Sequence record: PZ386963.1
DNA length: 64,000 nucleotides
Origin: a phage
Reading direction: 5' to 3' (one strand)
Shown here: positions 3,086 to 30,151 of the stretch, in pieces
Layout: each line of letters opens with the position of its first letter
Numbering within the stretch: position 1 is the stretch's first letter
Made by a program: the position numbers and the translations under genes
The notes under the pieces: generated by a model
What the model was told of the DNA's origin: nothing
Database searches by the model: none
The model's input: the letters and a program-made list of their open reading frames with translations, nothing else

Positions 3086-3585
3086 TGGCTGAAGTTATCT
3101 CTATTTCAAATGCTACACGAGTGCATTCGTATAGAGGTGTTCTTATTATCACTGACAAATTATCTGTAGAGGCTGGCTCAAGGGTCAGCCTTTCAGGTTA
3201 TGTAAGCGATGGTGGAGCCTCTGACGTTTTCACTATTTGCAGGTTACTTGATGCTCCAATGAGTGGAAAACCGTTTATTTCAGGAAATTGTAGTGAAATT
3301 GTTAAAATTCCATTTGACAGTTCATGCCTTTTGGGTGTAAAGTTATATAACTGCGAGAATAAACGTATCAATGTTAATAGCATTGAAGCCGCTTTCATTA
3401 CCCTCGACACTGCATTTCAATCTCCAATGACAGTTAATAAAGAAACAAACAGGCTTGAGTACATTTTTTCACAAAATGATTACAAAGTACTTGTCAAAGG
3501 TAAAGTATATGATATGATTGTAAATGTGGTAGATGAATCTGGTAACCATTCAACAGTCCTTAAACAAAAAGTAAGGTTTAATTAA
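3085..3585 (+). CDS. hypothetical head-module protein
   Basis: 166-aa ORF, start overlaps portal stop (translational coupling). Confidence 0.3.
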   Translation: MAEVISISNATRVHSYRGVLIITDKLSVEAGSRVSLSGYVSDGGASDVFTICRLLDAPMSGKPFISGNCSEIVKIPFDSSCLLGVKLYNCENKRINVNSIEAAFITLDTAFQSPMTVNKETNRLEYIFSQNDYKVLVKGKVYDMIVNVVDESGNHSTVLKQKVRFN

Positions 3586-3917
3586 TGGGAACATTAACTA
3601 TTGATGGTAAGAATAAAATCCTCGCCACGCTAACCCCAACGACTATTATTTTACACAATGTAGACCCAACGGCAGACCCTACAGCAAATAAGGTTACTCA
3701 GCCAGTGGCTATTTATTTTTCTGAACCGGATAATGGCTTAATTGCCTCAGAAGACACAGTTAACATTACTGTCCCAGCTTCTGCAACGGTCTCACACTAT
3801 AGCTTGTGGGATGCTAACGATAAATGCGTGGCAACTGGTGCTCTTAGCAAACCTCAATTCTTTGCTGAAGAAGGTATCTATGTTATCTCTTCAGTCTCTG
3901 TAGATTTAAACAAATAG
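3585..3917 (+). CDS. hypothetical head-module protein
   Basis: 110-aa ORF in structural operon. Confidence 0.3.
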   Translation: MGTLTIDGKNKILATLTPTTIILHNVDPTADPTANKVTQPVAIYFSEPDNGLIASEDTVNITVPASATVSHYSLWDANDKCVATGALSKPQFFAEEGIYVISSVSVDLNK

Positions 3918-11257: not shown

Positions 11258-19261
<8,004 letters not shown>

Positions 19262-19263
19262 TA

Positions 19264-20430
19264 ATGGCAGTAGGTGAAATTCAAATTAGTGCCTTGCCTC
19301 AAGCAGCCTTACCAATTGACCTTAGTGATATCTTCCATCTTAAACAGGGTATTGAGGATAAGAGATGTACTCTTGAGCAATTACTTGCTCCACACTCAAG
19401 CCTAAGAAATAACCCCCACGGTGTTACTAAAACACAAATTGGTTTAGATAACGTTATCAATGCTCTTCAGTTAGTTGCTGCAAATAATTTATCAGACATT
19501 ACTAATGTTGATGAGGCAAGAGCAAATCTACAGATTATGTCTTCAGAAGAGGTTAATAGCCTTGTCCAACAGCATATTAATGATAAGAGTAATCCACACA
19601 ATACAACTAAAGCACAGGTTGGTTTAAGTAATGTTCAGAACTGGACAACATCCAACCTTTATAATGAGGATGCAGATAAGTATGCTACAGCAAGAGCAGT
19701 AAATAACTTGTACAAGGCTGTTCAGGCTTCTTATCCAGTAGGTACTATCCATCTCTCTATGAATCCTGCAAACCCTTCTACATATTTAATTTGTGGAGGT
19801 ACTTGGGAGTTAGTTTCAAAAGGAAGAGCACTTGTAGGTTATGATAGTGCTTCTAGGCCAGTTGGTAGTAACTTTGGCTCAAGTAGTGTTAGCTTATCTA
19901 GTAACAATCTACCATCACATAGCCATTCAATCTACCTAACTGGTGGTGGACATACTCATGGTGCTGCTATTACTATCGATGGCTTTGATTACGGCAATAA
20001 GAGCACAAACAGTTTCGATTATGGAACAAAGACCACTAATAGCACTGGTGCTCACACCCACTCAGTGAGCGGTTCAACAAATACCACAGGTAATCACACA
20101 CATACTGTAGGTGGTCGTTACGGGGGTGACTCTATTGGTGGTAAACAACGTGTTCAGGTCTCAGGGACTGCTCAGGTTTCCAGTGTAGCGGGTGACCACT
20201 CACACACTATTAGCGGTTCAACAAATACCACAGGCAATCACCAACACACTGTTGCAATTGGTGCTCACACGCATACTGTTGCAATTGGTGCTCATACCCA
20301 TAAAGGCACAGTAACTTTGCAGTCATCTGAGCATACTCACTCAGGTACTACAGGTACTACAGGTGCTGGTCAAGCATTTAGCGTTGAACAACCATCCTTT
20401 GTGGTTTATGTATGGCAAAGAACCGCTTAA
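19264..20430 (+). CDS. tail fiber protein with His-rich HxH-repeat C-terminal domain
   Basis: 388 aa; two NPHxxTKxQxGLxNV fiber-repeat motifs; C-terminus has repeated AHTHSV/GNHTHTV HxH motifs. Confidence 0.65.
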   Translation: MAVGEIQISALPQAALPIDLSDIFHLKQGIEDKRCTLEQLLAPHSSLRNNPHGVTKTQIGLDNVINALQLVAANNLSDITNVDEARANLQIMSSEEVNSLVQQHINDKSNPHNTTKAQVGLSNVQNWTTSNLYNEDADKYATARAVNNLYKAVQASYPVGTIHLSMNPANPSTYLICGGTWELVSKGRALVGYDSASRPVGSNFGSSSVSLSSNNLPSHSHSIYLTGGGHTHGAAITIDGFDYGNKSTNSFDYGTKTTNSTGAHTHSVSGSTNTTGNHTHTVGGRYGGDSIGGKQRVQVSGTAQVSSVAGDHSHTISGSTNTTGNHQHTVAIGAHTHTVAIGAHTHKGTVTLQSSEHTHSGTTGTTGAGQAFSVEQPSFVVYVWQRTA

Positions 20431-20480: not shown

Positions 20481-22826
20481 ATGGCAGATTACAAGTTGAG
20501 TGAATTAAACTCAATCGATACAATCCGTTCAGACGACCTTCTTCATGTCAGGGTTAAAAAGAGACCTGAAATGCTGGGTGATGAAGACCGTCGAATGACC
20601 TATCAAGACTTCTTAGCATCTTTTAAGCTTGAAAGATTTGTTCAGATTGCTGGTAGTACTATGACTGGTGACTTAGGGATTGTTAAGTTACTTTATGGTG
20701 GTAAGGTAGTCTTTGACCCTACAGGCTCTTCCGAGATTACTATGGGGGATGTTTTAAAGACTTTTAAAATTAATGCAAATGGTCTTAAACTAACTATTGC
20801 AGATGCTTCAAGGTCTGCAACTGTTTATCATACTCTTAATAAGCCAAGTCCTAATGAGCTTGGGATGAGAACTAATGAAGAGAATGACGCAAGATATGCA
20901 AGGCTTGCTGTCACAAACACATTCTCTGGGACTCAGAACATTCAAGGTGATGTTAACTTACTTCGCCTTAGAAACCAAAATGCAAATAATGCACAATATA
21001 TTGAAGGTGTAGACCTAGATGGCTCGGCTAGATGGTTGGTTGGTATTAGTAAAAATGGTTCTGATGCAGTGCAGTTGTACAATAATAAATATGACTCAGC
21101 TTTGACTATTGCAAGTAATATCTCTGTTAATAAGTCTTTAGCAATTACTGGTCAAGTCCAACCTTCGGATTTCTCTAACTTAGATGCAAGATACTTTACT
21201 CAGACGGCAGCTAATCAGAGGTTTGCACAGTTAGCTGGTAATAACACATTTAGTGGTTCTAATACTTTCACTAATTTTGTTATTAAGAAGAATGCTAATG
21301 CTATTACTATTCAAAATGTAGATACAACTACGGCTTTGTATATCCAAGCAAGGAAATCAGATGGAACTAATAAGTGGTACATTGGTAATGACGGTGATGA
21401 GAACATTGTAAACATCTATAACTATTTAGCAAAAACACAAATCTCACTAGGTAACACCATTACCATGAGTAAAACAGTCCAAATTGGTGGTCAAGTTCAA
21501 CCTTCTGATTGGACTAACATTGACTCTAGATATATTCCGGCAGCAACATTAAGTACGATTGCAAGAACTAATGCACAAAATACTTTTAATGGTGCGCAAA
21601 CAGTTGTTAGTGATGGCGAAGGTTTAGTTATTAAAAACTCTACTCAGAATAGGCCATTGTATATTCGTGGTAAGGACGCTGCCAATGTATCAAGATGGTG
21701 GTTAGGTGTTGGTGACCCAAATTCTACTGATGTAGCCTTAAACAACAGCTTCTCTGGCACTCAGTTAATTTTAGGTAACTCATCTGCAAGTATCAATAAG
21801 ACATTAACCCTAGCAGGGCAGATTCAACCCTCAGATTTCTCTAACTTAGATGCTAGATATTTTACCCAATCAGCAGCTAATCAGAGATTTATGTATGCAG
21901 GCTCTACAGGAACAGCTAGTGAAGTAGGGGATAGCAAAGGGGTTGCTTGGAATGCTAAAACTGGTCTATATAATGTTATGAGGTCTAGTGGAGACTCAAC
22001 ACTACTTGTTTTTCAAATGTATCAAGGTTCAAGCTCTACTCCTTCTGCTCAATTGAGATTCGACTACCGGAATGGAGGATTTTGGTATAGGTCATCAAGG
22101 GACAGATTTGGTTTTGAAGAGGACTTCACACAAATTTATACAGAAAAGTATAAACCAACTCCTTCAGCTATCGGTGCATACACTAAAGCTGAAACTGACC
22201 AGAAGATTGCACAGGCAGTAAGTGATTCAACAGACCTTAATAAAATCTACCCTGTTGGTATTGTAACTTGGTTTAACAGTAACGTTAACCCTAATACCGC
22301 ACTTCCTGGATTAACTTGGACGTACTTGAACAATGGTGTAGGTAGAACAATCAGGGTTGCAGCAGCTAATGGTTCAGATGTTGCTACAACTGGAGGTTCA
22401 GATTCTGTTACGTTAGCAGTTGGAAACTTACCTTCACACACTCATAGTTTCTCTGCGACTACTTCATCATTTGACTATGGTACTAAAACCACTAACACTA
22501 CTGGTGCTCACACCCACTCAGTGAGTGGTTCTACTAACAACACTGGTGCTCATACACATACAGTTGGTGGTCGTTATGGTGGTGACTCTATCGGTGGTAA
22601 ACAACGTGTTCAGGTATCTGGTACAGAACAGGTATCTAGCTCTGCTGGTGCTCACTCTCACACTGTATCTGGTACTGCTACCTCTAACGGAAACCATGCT
22701 CACACTGTTGGTATTGGTGCTCACAGTCATACAGTTAGTGGTAACACTGGTGGTACAGGTTCTGGTTCAGCATTTAGTGTTACTAACCAGTTCTATAAGC
22801 TGATGGCTTGGGTGAGAACTGCTTAA
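20481..22826 (+). CDS. long tail fiber protein with internal repeats and HxH C-terminal domain
   Basis: 781 aa; three copies of GQVQPSDFSNLDARYFTQ-like repeat; C-terminal ~100 aa near-identical to that of 19264..20430. Confidence 0.65.
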   Translation: MADYKLSELNSIDTIRSDDLLHVRVKKRPEMLGDEDRRMTYQDFLASFKLERFVQIAGSTMTGDLGIVKLLYGGKVVFDPTGSSEITMGDVLKTFKINANGLKLTIADASRSATVYHTLNKPSPNELGMRTNEENDARYARLAVTNTFSGTQNIQGDVNLLRLRNQNANNAQYIEGVDLDGSARWLVGISKNGSDAVQLYNNKYDSALTIASNISVNKSLAITGQVQPSDFSNLDARYFTQTAANQRFAQLAGNNTFSGSNTFTNFVIKKNANAITIQNVDTTTALYIQARKSDGTNKWYIGNDGDENIVNIYNYLAKTQISLGNTITMSKTVQIGGQVQPSDWTNIDSRYIPAATLSTIARTNAQNTFNGAQTVVSDGEGLVIKNSTQNRPLYIRGKDAANVSRWWLGVGDPNSTDVALNNSFSGTQLILGNSSASINKTLTLAGQIQPSDFSNLDARYFTQSAANQRFMYAGSTGTASEVGDSKGVAWNAKTGLYNVMRSSGDSTLLVFQMYQGSSSTPSAQLRFDYRNGGFWYRSSRDRFGFEEDFTQIYTEKYKPTPSAIGAYTKAETDQKIAQAVSDSTDLNKIYPVGIVTWFNSNVNPNTALPGLTWTYLNNGVGRTIRVAAANGSDVATTGGSDSVTLAVGNLPSHTHSFSATTSSFDYGTKTTNTTGAHTHSVSGSTNNTGAHTHTVGGRYGGDSIGGKQRVQVSGTEQVSSSAGAHSHTVSGTATSNGNHAHTVGIGAHSHTVSGNTGGTGSGSAFSVTNQFYKLMAWVRTA

Positions 22827-26610: not shown

Positions 26611-26994
26611 TCAAATACCTGTGCAGCTTCTGTTTTCTAAGAAATACTCAACACCATACATAGCTTTTTGCATCAAATCTTCTTTAAACTGGATACGATG
26701 GTTGAGCATAGCCTGCACATCAATATCATCATGGTGCTTCTCTTTAATATTTGCAGATTGCAGGAAATACTCTGCAAGAACACGATACTGGTAGTCAGTC
26801 ACCTTATCGGTCATCTCTGTCAAAGACTCTTCAGAGATGGGTTTAAGTAACTCACCATTAGCTAGAGCAACACCTTTTACAATCTGGCAAGTGTCTTCTG
26901 GAACACCTGATAAGTCCACATTTGGAAGTTCTGTTGCATTGACTGGTAAGTTCATTGCCATAACCATTGCAGCAGCTAATAAAATCTTTTTCAT
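26611..26994 (-). CDS. secreted / periplasmic protein (signal peptide)
   Basis: N-terminus MKKILLAAAMVMAMNLPVNA is a typical Sec signal peptide. Confidence 0.45.
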   Translation of the reverse strand: MKKILLAAAMVMAMNLPVNATELPNVDLSGVPEDTCQIVKGVALANGELLKPISEESLTEMTDKVTDYQYRVLAEYFLQSANIKEKHHDDIDVQAMLNHRIQFKEDLMQKAMYGVEYFLENRSCTGI

Positions 26995-27039
26995 AATGAC
27001 CTCAAAGTTATATTAAATTTTGTATTACATTGAGTATAA

Positions 27040-27086
27040 AAATAAGCTATAACACCTGACTTGTCAACAGATTTTATAGCTTATTT
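27040..27086. promoter_or_regulatory. 13-bp perfect inverted repeat (AAATAAGCTATAA / TTATAGCTTATTT) flanking a TTGACA-containing 21-nt spacer
   Basis: Read directly; lies about 50 bp upstream of the - strand operon starting at 26994. Confidence 0.4.
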
Positions 27087-27110
27087 GGCAGATTTTTTAT
27101 AAGGCTACTG

Positions 27111-27176
27111 CCATCCTTCCATACCTTACCTTACCACACCTAACCATACCTAACCAAACTACACCATACAATACCT
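27111..27176. repeat. strand-asymmetric CA-rich low-complexity block (ACCTTACC/ACCTAACC-like units)
   Basis: Read directly; almost no G on + strand. Confidence 0.6.
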
Positions 27177-27244
27177 TGTTAAAAGACCCTCTTTAAAGAC
27201 CTTTTAAAAAGGTGAGTCTCATTTTAATGTAGCTGAGACTAACT

Positions 27245-27322
27245 ACCCTCACCAAACCAGACCCAACCCAGCCCAGCCATACCAGACCATACCAAACCCA
27301 ACCGAACCGAACCCTACCGAAC
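27245..27322. repeat. second CA-rich low-complexity block (CCCAACC/CCAGACC/CCGAACC units)
   Basis: Read directly; complementary strand has several GGG runs. Confidence 0.6.
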
Positions 27323-27414
27323 ATCACTTAAAAACCCTCTTAGAAGACTCTTAAGTGATGCTGGTGAGTACCCGTTGGTTTATGCTGCTCAGTATACTCA
27401 CCAAATTTTCTATG

Positions 27415-27603
27415 TCAACAACTTTCTAATAAAGTTTTATGAAGATTTTGCTTAACGACCCGCCTAACATGCCTATGTTCTTTCTTAATAAAGAGTGACC
27501 TCTTCTTGATAGAGCGCCTATTCTTGTAAGTGTTGCTAGGATACTTATCATGAACCGGACAACAACTCCCCGGTTTTACAAACTTGATAATCTCTCTTTT
27601 CAC
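27415..27603 (-). CDS. small basic protein
   Basis: 62-aa K/R-rich ORF coupled to ligase gene stop. Confidence 0.3.
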   Translation of the reverse strand: MKREIIKFVKPGSCCPVHDKYPSNTYKNRRSIKKRSLFIKKEHRHVRRVVKQNLHKTLLESC

Positions 27604-28703
27604 TATTCATAATCCCTAATAACGAGACCAACAGGGAACTGTAAAGAACCCTTACGAGTCATCTTCTGGAACTGAACCGTTAAAGGCTTCCCGATAAACT
27701 CTTCAGGGTGTTCAGCAAGATACTGTTTCTTCTCGTGTGTAGTTTTCCATGAGACATCTACAAAGACGTTAGGAAGAGTCTCTACAACGAACTTGCCATG
27801 ACCACGTTTATCGGTCTTTACACCAGTCACTTTAAACTCTTCAGTGTGCATCTTCTTGTGCTTAATCAAGAAGTATGAACGGTGACAACACTCATAGAAG
27901 GAGTCTTCAGAGATTGAACGGTACATTGCACCTTCAAACTTAGCTTCAACCCACTTATCATGAGCTTCATCAAACTCTTCCCAAGAATTTACACGGATAG
28001 TTTGTACAGGAACCACTCTACAGGTATCCCCAAGCTCAACAATAGGTGAACTATCAATAACTTCACGACGCTCAGGCCAAGATTTTGAATTGTCACAGAT
28101 ATCATACCAGTAGAATTTAAGAAGGTGACGGTCTGGATTGTCAGCATTCTTAATCATGGATACAATATCTTCTAAGTCCCAACCATGAGCATAAATCTCT
28201 CCATCAAAGTCTTCAACTTGTGGATGTAATTTAAGCAACAAAAGCAAATCTGGAATTAGTTCTGCTGGAACGTTGTAAACAGTATTCTCACGAGAATAAG
28301 CCGTGAAGCTAACTGAATCATCATCTCTTGAAATTCTACAACGGACACCATCAAGTTTTGGTTGAGCATCAGCAGGGAACTTCAGATACTTTGCATGGCT
28401 AACCTTTGCAGCATCATGAGCAAGCTGTACACCTACCTTCTCAGTATTCTGTGCAGACTCTTTTGTGTAAGCATAACCTTTGCGGTCAACTTGTTTCTTG
28501 TACTTAGCAGAAACTTCAAAGAGAGCTTGCTGTTCAGCGTTACGCTCATTCTTTTTACCGATGTTTTTAGGCTCTGCTGTGTACTCTTCAAACATCATCT
28601 TGCCATTTTCTTTACCATAGGTTGTAATAACTTTGTCACCTACAGCAACACATGACCAGACGTTGAAAGAGCCATCTTTATTTTGTTTGTACAGTATTGT
28701 CAT
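27603..28703 (-). CDS. ATP-dependent DNA ligase
   Basis: Motif I KLDGVR (adenylation lysine); 366 aa. Confidence 0.75.
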   Translation of the reverse strand: MTILYKQNKDGSFNVWSCVAVGDKVITTYGKENGKMMFEEYTAEPKNIGKKNERNAEQQALFEVSAKYKKQVDRKGYAYTKESAQNTEKVGVQLAHDAAKVSHAKYLKFPADAQPKLDGVRCRISRDDDSVSFTAYSRENTVYNVPAELIPDLLLLLKLHPQVEDFDGEIYAHGWDLEDIVSMIKNADNPDRHLLKFYWYDICDNSKSWPERREVIDSSPIVELGDTCRVVPVQTIRVNSWEEFDEAHDKWVEAKFEGAMYRSISEDSFYECCHRSYFLIKHKKMHTEEFKVTGVKTDKRGHGKFVVETLPNVFVDVSWKTTHEKKQYLAEHPEEFIGKPLTVQFQKMTRKGSLQFPVGLVIRDYE

Positions 28704-29584: not shown

Positions 29585-30151
29585 TCAACTTAGTTTTGCA
29601 AACTCTCCGTGGAGTTTTATAGCAGCTTCACAGTAAGCTTTATGGGCTTCTTCTGGTGTGTCATAGTAGCCTAATGACATCTTTTTACCTTTATAGCTTA
29701 TTTGTGCAACCCACCTACCAGACTTCTTCTTCAGGCTTACACCCTTATAGCCTGACTTATTGGTGGATAGTTTGCTTTTATTCCAAGCACTTTGGTAGTC
29801 ATCTGCTTCTCTTAAGTTTGCAATCCTGTTATCAAGGGAGTCCCCATTAATATGGTCAATAACACCTTTCGGTAACCTACCATACACATACAGCCATGCG
29901 AGTCTGTGCGCTTTATGTGCTTTCTTGTCAAAATAGATAGTAATCTGTTTATGACCAGTTGAGTCAATCTGGATGCTCCCCGCTACCTGTCCTGCGTACT
30001 GAGTATTAAAAACTTTAACAGCCTTTGAGTCGCCCTCTCTACGAAGCCAAGTAAAGACCCCTGTTTCGGGGTCATAGTGTAGTAGTTCCTTTAAACGTTC
30101 TTGTGTAATCATTTTGTCACCATTAATGCACTTCCAACCACGACTTACCAA
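29585..30151 (-). mobile_element. free-standing HNH homing endonuclease with AP2 DNA-binding domain
   Basis: HRLAWLYVYG..IDHINGDSLDNRIANLR HNH_3-type motif plus C-terminal GYKGVS..RWVAQI AP2-like segment; directly downstream of pol. Confidence 0.65.

What the first reader, a model, noticed from the sequence alone, without database searches (positions are those of the whole stretch)
27040..27360. Structured non-coding region with CA-rich strand-asymmetric blocks and perfect inverted repeats
The 420-bp gap between the ligase-side operon and the secreted-protein/HTH operon contains: a 13-bp perfect inverted repeat (27040-27052 / 27074-27086) around a TTGACA; two blocks (27111-27176, 27245-27322) of degenerate ACC-rich short repeats with almost no G on the + strand, whose complement has several GGG runs; and a 10-bp perfect inverted repeat CATCACTTAA / TTAAGTGATG (27323-27332 / 27351-27360). 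Nothing similar occurs elsewhere in the window. Possibilities include a replication origin, a regulated promoter/operator, a structured non-coding RNA or a recombination hotspot. The 13-mer TTATAGCTTATTT recurs exactly at 29691-29703 inside the HNH homing endonuclease gene, which is unlikely by chance for one pair in 64 kb and may be homing-related or coincidental.
Basis: seen in the sequence. Interest (0 to 1): 0.55.

Follow-up and report, generated by a model that had tools for sequence, protein, structure and literature searches.

The report
Orphan VIPR guide-RNA array in phage
The odd CA-rich region is a pair of VIPR guide RNA genes, a phage RNA-guided DNA-silencing system first described in 2026; their guides match an E. 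coli satellite phage, but this phage lacks the Vipr protein gene that would use them.

Summary
There the two "ACC-rich blocks" are gap-free 5-nt-register arrays (GGYNN)n of 16 and 13 units. They sit behind a near-consensus sigma-70 promoter, and each ends in a conserved pseudoknot tail.

This is the anatomy of VIPR guide RNAs (vrRNAs; two Doudna-lab preprints, April-June 2026). A Vipr protein binds one protomer per pentamer, hides GGY, and presents the NN dinucleotides, which pair with DNA while skipping every third base.

In close relatives GGY is kept and NN is hypervariable. About half of Ounavirinae phages carry vipr and vap inside this same locus.

Under the published 1-nt-skip rule, guide A matches 20/22 positions over the -10/start region of a promoter in an E. 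coli chromosomal satellite. Guide B matches 24-25/32 inside that satellite's second gene, with the skipped bases on wobble positions.

The window has no vipr or vap in its 64 kb, so the array is orphan. Bas63, a complete genome, is orphan as well. It is not a replication origin.

The kind is known. The vipr-less but undecayed arrays are a modest new observation.

The parts
27391..27418 (-). Sigma-70-type promoter P1 (TTGACA-16-TATACT, 11/12) that would drive the array. The start site is inferred to lie near 27384.
   Evidence: The sequence is identical or differs by one base in 29 related loci, vipr+ and vipr- alike, including SUSP2 and Felix O1. Transcription itself was not tested here.
27322..27360 (-). 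Leader hairpin before guide B (CATCACTTAA...TTAAGTGATG, loop containing AAGAGGGT). Its 3' arm runs into the first degenerate repeat units.
   Evidence: I2. A paralogous hairpin precedes guide A (I3). Both types recur before every tract in relatives. Its role (processing or punctuation) is inferred, not shown.
27249..27328 (-). vrRNA-B repeat tract: 16 GGYNN units. NN = (GA) TC AG TC TC TG TT AT CT AT TG TG TG CT TT GA.
   Evidence: Under the 1-nt-skip rule it matches 24-25/32 positions (24/30 without the leader unit) inside the 279-nt second gene of the satellite, with skipped bases on codon position 3.
27211..27248 (-). vrRNA-B 3' tail: H-type pseudoknot GGGTAG TT AGTCTCA G CTAC ATTAAAA TGAGACT CACC.
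   Evidence: All cells are paired across 12 distinct tails, and 3 pairs carry compensatory changes between tail subtypes.
27173..27213 (-). Inter-guide hairpin (13-bp stem, loop GTCTTTAAAGAGGGT), paralogous to the leader hairpin.
   Evidence: (I3).
27121..27175 (-). vrRNA-A repeat tract: 11 units. NN = AT AT GT TT TA AT TA GT AA AA AT.
   Evidence: The same guide occurs in the vipr+ relatives L013 and L025. It matches 20/22 positions over the -10/start region of the satellite promoter.
27087..27120 (-). vrRNA-A 3' tail: pseudoknot GGAAGG AT GGCAG TAG CCTT ATAAAAAAT CTGCC.
   Evidence: All cells are paired, with compensatory changes against the tail that precedes vipr in relatives (AAGG/CCTT versus GTGG/CCAC; GGCAG/CTGCC versus GGTAG/CTACC). 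It has 0-1 mismatch in 29 loci.
27039..27086 (-). 13/19-bp palindrome enclosing TTGACA. It holds promoter-like site P2 (TTGACA-17-TATTTT) for the downstream 127-aa / HTH / DHFR / ThyA genes, and may also terminate the array.
   Evidence: It is conserved with the VIPR locus even in SUSP2, whose downstream gene is only 34% identical. It is absent from Mordin, which has no array. Its function is inferred.

Best explanation
The region is a two-guide array of VIPR RNAs (vrRNAs) of the SUSP1 / type II clade, read on the minus strand.

A host-type promoter (27418->27391) would transcribe a leader hairpin, guide B (16 GGYNN units plus a pseudoknot tail), a second hairpin, and guide A (11 units plus a pseudoknot tail).

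The following mechanism is established for SUSP1 in the two 2026 preprints, not tested here. Vipr, a minimal RAMP protein, polymerises along the RNA with one protomer per pentamer. It buries each GGY and presents each NN. The NNs pair with a DNA strand while every third target base is flipped out. The resulting gapped R-loop/triplex blocks transcription.

Here guide A is complementary to the -10/start region of a promoter of an ~11-kb E. coli chromosomal satellite that shares a baseplate gene with this phage. Guide B is complementary to the satellite's second gene.

The array is orphan: this genome has neither vipr nor vap at the locus where relatives carry them. By itself it can therefore do nothing. 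Either it is a recent product of a vipr-vap deletion between the repeated leader/tail modules, or it works only when Vipr is supplied by a co-infecting vipr+ relative.
For: Shown here:
- The register is strictly 5 nt, found only here, against 0 expected.
- In 22 close relatives GGY is kept while the NN, the unit number and the block number vary.
- A ~195-aa protein family lies next to such arrays in 29 unrelated IMG/VR loci and in SUSP2.
- That family matches PDB 36pp, "SUSP1 Vipr protein", at E = 4e-81.
- vipr sits inside this same locus in 17 of the 32 related loci examined, the window included, and in about 118 phage records.
- The tail pseudoknots are supported by covariation.
- Target matches appear only with a 1-nt skip: A 20/22 and B 25/32. 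None of 300 unit-order shuffles reached these values.
- The hits lie at homologous positions in several satellites. A lies over the promoter -10, and B has its skipped bases on wobble positions.
- 41 of 60 unique guides from relatives reach at least 80% match on just 11 satellites.
- There is no vipr or vap in the window, and none in the complete Bas63 genome.

From the literature: the architecture, the skip rule, satellite targeting and the structure (bioRxiv 10.64898/2026.04.26.720920; 10.64898/2026.04.26.720927).
Against: - No expression data exist for this phage, so the promoter and the RNA ends are inferred.
- Guide B reaches only 78-80% match in the 11 satellites sampled, which is at the published threshold.
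- About 22 kb of the genome lies outside the window, so absence of vipr is shown only for these 64 kb and, by analogy, for Bas63.
- The guides have no evident use without Vipr.
- In Bas63 the homologue of guide A carries a (GGTTA GGTAT)x3 slippage expansion that breaks the target register. This argues that at least some orphan guides are not under selection.
Confidence: 0.92

Rival explanations
1. Present-day role: inert relic. Recombination between the repeated leader/tail modules deleted vipr-vap, and the remaining guides are transcribed junk that has not yet decayed.
For: - There is no vipr or vap.
- Orphan loci carry 1-2 guides, against 3-5 in vipr+ loci. A deletion between flanking modules would leave this pattern.
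- Bas63 has a slippage expansion.
- The Felix O1 guide finds no target, at 13/18.
- The orphan median match is 0.80, against 0.87 for vipr+ guides.
- No SUSP-type vipr DNA is found in 5,426 E. coli genomes that could serve in trans.
Against: - Promoter P1, the tail and the palindrome are as intact in orphan loci as in vipr+ loci, with 0-1 mismatch.
- GGY integrity is 81% in orphan loci against 84% in vipr+ loci.
- 8 of 15 orphan-only guides still match satellites at 80% or better.
- Orphan arrays are frequent: roughly half of the relatives examined.
Confidence: 0.45
2. Present-day role: trans-acting guides. The orphan array is loaded by Vipr made by a co-infecting vipr+ Ounavirinae phage, as the vipr-less satellites appear to do. 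The phage gains anti-satellite protection, or biases the shared Vipr pool, without carrying the protein genes.
For: - A satellite (L155, about 3689, minus strand) carries a vrRNA with a SUSP-type tail, and none of the 11 satellites encodes Vipr.
- The preprint also reports satellite-borne vrRNAs.
- Orphan arrays keep their promoter, tails and matching guides.
- Vipr is 95-100% identical across genera, so any guide with these tails should be compatible.
Against: This requires co-infection. There is no direct evidence, and some orphan guides are broken.
Confidence: 0.3
3. Present-day role: decoy. The orphan RNAs titrate Vipr made by a competing vipr+ phage, an RNA anti-VIPR analogous to RNA anti-CRISPRs.
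For: The only support is that the tract and tails needed for Vipr binding are intact and that a strong promoter is present.
Against: A decoy would have no reason to keep NN sequences that match the satellite. The same guide A is used by vipr+ relatives.
Confidence: 0.07
4. The region is not a guide array at all. Alternatives are: a replication origin (an R-loop primed by a G-rich transcript); a binding platform for a TRAP-like ring protein; a two-tetrad G-quadruplex element; or a Rho-loading site on the + strand.
For: - A promoter followed by a G-rich non-template strand resembles R-loop origins.
- A conserved triplet with a 2-nt spacer resembles TRAP sites.
- GGN3GG could form G2 quadruplexes.
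- The + strand is C-rich and G-poor.
These were my own leads before the protein family was found.
Against: - None of these explains the hypervariable NN that match satellite DNA only under the 1-nt-skip rule.
- None explains the conserved pseudoknot tails.
- None explains the tight linkage to Vipr genes in unrelated phages.
- GC skew shows no extremum at 27 kb.
Confidence: 0.03

Closest known systems
VIPR type II (SUSP1-clade) vrRNA arrays (bioRxiv 10.64898/2026.04.26.720920 and 10.64898/2026.04.26.720927)
   Same: - GGY/NN pentamer tracts of 9-16 units.
- A hypervariable NN.
- A conserved 3' pseudoknot tail.
- The same promoter, leader and tail sequences as SUSP2.
- The same genomic slot, between the ligase and the 127-aa gene.
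- The same class of target: the E. coli satellite with tape-measure and baseplate genes.
- The same 1-nt-skip pairing rule.
   Different: There is no vipr and no vap gene. Only two guides are present, against 3-5 in vipr+ relatives. The published survey started from Vipr proteins, so vipr-less phage loci such as this one, Felix O1 and Bas63 were outside its scope. The words "orphan" and "Felix" do not occur in the paper.
Orphan CRISPR arrays and phage-borne mini-arrays
   Same: These too are guide-encoding arrays found without the cognate effector genes. They are either relics or users of an effector supplied in trans.
   Different: There are no CRISPR repeats. The guide is non-contiguous (2 of every 5 RNA bases pair with 2 of every 3 DNA bases). 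The effector is a single RAMP-like protein filament.
TRAP-binding leader RNAs (11 G/UAG triplets spaced by 2-3 nt)
   Same: A conserved triplet plus a 2-nt spacer, repeated about a dozen times, with one protein subunit per 5 nt.
   Different: This is an analogy only. The spacers here carry the information, the protein forms a helical filament rather than a ring, and the output is DNA recognition rather than attenuation.

Membership tests
vrRNA (RNA component of VIPR systems) | Tandem YNNGG/GGYNN repeats (9-16 units), with GGY conserved and NN hypervariable among relatives | tested here: met
   The tracts have 16 and 11(+2) units in a gap-free 5-nt register. NN vary and GGY is kept across 22 close relatives. 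23 of 26 units are GGY.
vrRNA (RNA component of VIPR systems) | An invariant 3' tail of about 40 nt that folds into a hairpin/pseudoknot | tested here: met
   Both tails are canonical. All cells are paired, with compensatory changes between tail subtypes.
vrRNA (RNA component of VIPR systems) | The NN string finds natural DNA targets under the 1-nt-skip rule (at least 80% NN match) | tested here: met
   Guide A scores 20/22 (91%). Guide B scores 25/32 (78%), or 24/30 (80%) without the leader unit. Other skip lengths give background values, and 0 of 300 shuffles reach the observed scores. Guide B is borderline.
vrRNA (RNA component of VIPR systems) | Expressed as an RNA of about 100 nt that co-purifies with Vipr | not testable with these tools
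   Only a consensus promoter is seen. Expression was shown for SUSP1 in the preprint.
Complete VIPR system (type II) | A vipr gene (RAMP homologue) in the locus | tested here: not met
   A Vipr profile HMM and tblastn find nothing in the 64-kb window. vipr is present at this slot in 17 related loci. The locus is therefore not filed as a complete VIPR system.
Complete VIPR system (type II) | A vap accessory gene next to vipr | tested here: not met
   tblastn with the SUSP2 146-aa protein (phrog_5926) gives no hit in the window or in Bas63.
CRISPR array | Direct repeats of about 23-50 nt separated by unique spacers of similar length | tested here: not met
   The repeat unit is 5 nt. The only longer repeated modules are the leader hairpin and the tail.
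Phage replication origin | A GC-skew extremum, iterons, or an AT-rich unwinding element at the site | tested here: not met
   Cumulative skew turns at about 23 kb and 33 kb, where the coding strand switches, and not at 27 kb.
Any Rfam family | A covariance-model match | tested here: not met
   Only chance-level snoRNA or leader hits were found, all with E of 0.2 or more. vrRNAs are not in Rfam 15.

The most novel reading that the evidence does not exclude
Vipr-less phages keep vrRNA arrays because the guides work in trans. In mixed infections they load onto Vipr made by vipr+ relatives, as satellite-borne vrRNAs appear to do. Guide-only "free-rider" genomes would then be a stable strategy in the three-way conflict between Felix O1-like phages, their kin and their satellite. 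This would make about half of Felixounavirus genomes, including Felix O1 and the BASEL phage Bas63, participants in VIPR warfare without encoding the effector.
Probability: 0.25. Interest if true: 0.7.

Novelty: new member of a known kind. Interest (0 to 1): 0.45.

Why it matters
VIPR is a newly described RNA-guided system, proposed as an ancestor of CRISPR RAMPs and known so far only from two 2026 preprints. This window shows three things.

- The guide arrays can be recognised from raw sequence alone, by their strict GGYNN register and pseudoknot tail.
- They occur without the effector in many well-used phages, including the Felix O1 type phage and BASEL Bas63.
- Such orphan guides still point at the satellite's promoter.

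This gives a simple experimental handle: add vipr in trans, or co-infect. It would test whether guides are shared between genomes, how vipr-vap cassettes are gained and lost, and how Felixounaviruses interact with a satellite found in about 9% of complete E. coli genomes.

Tried and rejected
- **Coding potential.** A 44-aa ORF (27193-27327, minus strand) with an AGAGGG motif upstream lies over guide B. I rejected it because the pentamer register puts TAG/TAA/TGA in all frames in relatives, and the NN vary freely.
- **Rfam.** No family matched.
- **TRAP-like ring binding, R-loop origin, G2-quadruplex, Rho loading, Chi or primase-site clusters.** I considered these from the sequence and dropped them once the linked protein family was identified and the skip-rule targets were found.
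- **blastn of the array against 5,426 E. coli genomes.** No match. The satellite vrRNA was only found later, by pattern search.
- **blastn of SUSP2 vipr-vap DNA against E. coli genomes.** No match.
- **Self-targeting.** Neither guide matches the window itself above background. The best scores are 16/22 for guide A and 19/32 for guide B at skip 1.
- **First satellite fetched (L149).** It gave only background for the window's guides. Other satellite subtypes were needed.
- **Pfam on Vipr and neighbouring proteins.** Nothing useful.
- **AlphaFold model of Vipr.** A confident model was built (pLDDT 94.6), but I did not run a fold search because the PDB sequence match had already settled its identity.

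Full report
**What is there.** The window is a Felix O1-like myovirus (Felixounavirus). All genes around the finding are on the minus strand. DNA ligase is at 27603-28703 and a small ORF at 27415-27603. A 420-bp gap follows, then a 127-aa gene (26611-26994), an HTH regulator, DHFR and ThyA.

The 10-bp inverted repeat is one base off from the stated coordinates. The recurrence of the 13-mer at 29691 is unremarkable: shuffles of the window give about 53 identical 13-mer pairs.

The important property shows only on the minus strand. Both "CA-rich blocks" are gap-free arrays with a 5-nt period, (GGYNN)x16 at 27328->27249 and x13 at 27175->27111. GGTNN x6 with up to 2 mismatches occurs 21 times, all here, against 0.00 expected.

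A near-consensus sigma-70 promoter (TTGACA-16-TATACT) lies just upstream at 27418->27391. A weaker one (TTGACA-17-TATTTT) lies inside the 13-bp palindrome.

**Comparison with relatives.** I fetched 22 IMG/VR relatives whose flanking protein is 95-100% identical. In these the blocks persist, but the NN positions, the unit number (7-16) and the number of blocks (1-3) differ freely while GGY stays.

- Felix O1 has one block.
- SUSP2, whose flanking protein is only 34% identical, has five pentamer runs (four or five guides). Its promoter, hairpins and tails are nearly identical to the window's, and two genes are inserted between the block pairs.
- Mordin has none.

**How the identity was found.** A scan of IMG/VR for GGTNN x7 returned more than 120 contigs. 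Apart from trivial simple repeats, many unrelated contigs carry multi-block arrays with variable NN and a fixed punctuation motif.

A protein of about 195 aa ends immediately upstream of the array in many of them. Clustering put 29 such neighbours, including the first SUSP2 insert gene, into one family. The family is phrog_4652, with unknown function and no Pfam domain. It is widespread in phages and prophages.

A profile of the family hits PDB 36pp, "SUSP1 Vipr protein", at E = 4e-81. That led to two preprints on Viral Interference Programmable Repeat systems. They report the following.

- Vipr is a minimal RAMP protein.
- vrRNAs are 9-16 YNNGG repeats capped by a 3' pseudoknot tail.
- One Vipr protomer binds each repeat, buries GGY and presents NN.
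- The NNs pair with DNA while every third target base is skipped.
- Binding silences transcription.
- 18 of 20 SUSP1-clade guides with identifiable targets hit an E. coli satellite phage.

**Testing membership here.**

- **Repeat tract:** met (see above).
- **Tail:** the window's two tails (27248->27211 and 27120->27087) are canonical. Alignments of distinct tails give 100% paired cells in an H-type pseudoknot. Compensatory changes separate the tail subtypes: AGTCTCA/TGAGACT versus AATCGGA/TTCGATT; AAGG/CCTT versus GTGG/CCAC; GGCAG/CTGCC versus GGTAG/CTACC. The samples are small and the subtypes are paralogues, so this is supportive rather than decisive.
- **Targets:** I found the satellite through its baseplate gene, which is 90-94% identical in DNA to window 13473-14270. 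It is present in 474 of 5,426 complete E. coli genomes. I fetched 11 copies.

As a positive control, guides from relatives match these satellites at up to 100% of NN positions. This holds only with a 1-nt skip, and 41 of 60 unique guides reach at least 80%.

The window's guide A matches 20/22 positions at L151 3850 and L159 4749, and 18-19/22 in three more copies. The site is always 62 nt before the first gene of a satellite operon. It starts 12 nt after a TTGACA and covers the -10 (TAGTAT) and the start region.

Guide B matches 24-25/32 positions inside the adjacent 279-nt gene in four copies, with every skipped base on codon position 3. The preprint reports the same bias for natural targets.

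Unit-order shuffles reached at most 19 for guide A and 23 for guide B (0 of 300 reached the observed values). Neither guide matches the window itself.

**The orphan state.** A Vipr HMM and tblastn with SUSP2 Vipr and Vap find nothing in the 64-kb window. The complete 87.1-kb genome of Bas63 (JohannRWettstein) has a two-guide array and no vipr or vap anywhere.

Of the loci I hold, 17 are vipr+ with 2-5 guides. Thirteen, plus the window, are vipr- with 0-2 guides. Mordin has no array. In the phage collection about 118 records carry SUSP-type vipr, against 259 that carry the flanking gene.

Orphan loci are not visibly decayed.

- Promoter P1, the last tail and the palindrome have 0-1 mismatch in orphan and vipr+ loci alike.
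- GGY integrity is 81% in orphan loci against 84% in vipr+ loci.
- 8 of 15 orphan-only guides still match a satellite at 80% or better.
- Guide A is shared with two vipr+ relatives.

Other evidence points towards decay.

- The Bas63 homologue of guide A has a 30-nt slippage expansion that breaks the register.
- The Felix O1 guide finds no target.
- No SUSP-type vipr DNA exists in the E. coli genomes.

One satellite (L155) carries its own vrRNA with a SUSP-type tail. None of the 11 satellites encodes Vipr. Guide-only elements that must borrow Vipr therefore have a precedent.

**Interpretation.** The assignment as a vrRNA array is secure (about 0.92). The mechanism is taken from the preprints. 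What is shown here is the anatomy, the linkage to vipr in relatives, and the target matches. What is inferred is that the array is transcribed from P1, where the RNA ends lie, and what the two leader hairpins do.

The 13-bp palindrome belongs to the conserved right edge of the VIPR locus. It is present in SUSP2 although the downstream gene has diverged, and it is absent from Mordin. It most likely combines the promoter for the downstream operon with a terminator or operator. This was not tested.

For the present-day role of the orphan array I rank three readings: relic of a vipr-vap deletion between repeated modules (0.45), use of Vipr in trans during co-infection (0.30), and decoy (0.07).

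A replication origin is not supported. GC skew follows the coding strand and turns at about 23 kb and 33 kb.

**Novelty.** The kind has been known since April 2026, and this is the very clade that was studied. Vipr-less arrays in phage genomes lay outside that Vipr-centred survey. Their frequency, their intact state and their live targets are a modest addition, not a new category.

Noticed in passing
L126 3233-4394; L048 2217-3406; L038 (minus strand) 3396-3843; also L037, L045, L054, L058, L119, L133: Unrelated IMG/VR contigs carry very long vrRNA-like arrays, up to 13-17 pentamer tracts and more than 1 kb. Each has its own short punctuation or tail motif: GGCAGTT in L126, GGAATGGTTTAATGAATTTAATTT in L048, GGCTAATG in L038. 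A Vipr homologue usually ends just upstream. These probably correspond to other VIPR types, but I did not classify them.
   Followed up: partly
L054 11014-11511, L058 7855-8337, L087 531-1061, L126 4419-4928, L143 634-1098: A second protein family of about 165 aa (phrog_15946, unknown function) recurs next to arrays in five unrelated contigs. It may be a vap-type accessory gene.
   Followed up: no
window 13473-14270: This 265-aa baseplate gene is 90-94% identical in DNA over about 540 bp to the "phage baseplate protein" of an ~11-kb chromosomal satellite. That satellite also carries a tape-measure gene, a serine recombinase, often a Dam methylase and an HNH gene. It is present in 474 of 5,426 complete E. 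coli genomes, inserted at a DUF72 gene or between yciI and tonB. The identity implies recent exchange between phage and satellite.
   Followed up: partly
L155 about 3689-3760 (minus strand), inside the satellite of E. coli O103:H2 strain 129: The satellite itself encodes a 12-unit vrRNA with a SUSP-type tail (GGGTGGATTGTCGTAGCCACGTTAAAAATCGAC; the stem changes are compensatory), but it has no vipr.
   Followed up: partly
Bas63 MZ501086.1 27330-27424 (L160): The homologue of the window's guide A carries three extra copies of GGTTA GGTAT. This is a 10-nt slippage expansion within a guide tract, and shows how unit number changes.
   Followed up: partly
L026 (SUSP2) 900-2900 compared with window 27000-27700: The whole VIPR locus, from the ligase 3' end and promoter P1 to the palindrome, is nearly identical between SUSP2 and the window, while the next gene downstream is only 34% identical at protein level. 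Vipr is 95-100% identical across three genera. The locus therefore appears to move horizontally as a cassette.
   Followed up: partly
window 27415-27603 (minus strand): A 62-aa ORF lies between the ligase gene and promoter P1. It is conserved in DNA in SUSP2 and annotated as a 48-aa hypothetical protein in Bas63. Its function is unknown.
   Followed up: no
window 20248-20302 and 22491-22571: Tandem repeats of 27 nt and 42 nt lie in the tail-fibre genes. They are the repeats already noted in the Felix O1 genome paper for genes 76 and 77.
   Followed up: no
window 29691-29703: This is the second copy of TTATAGCTTATTT, inside the HNH endonuclease gene. Given about 53 identical 13-mer pairs in shuffles, it looks like chance.
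   Followed up: yes
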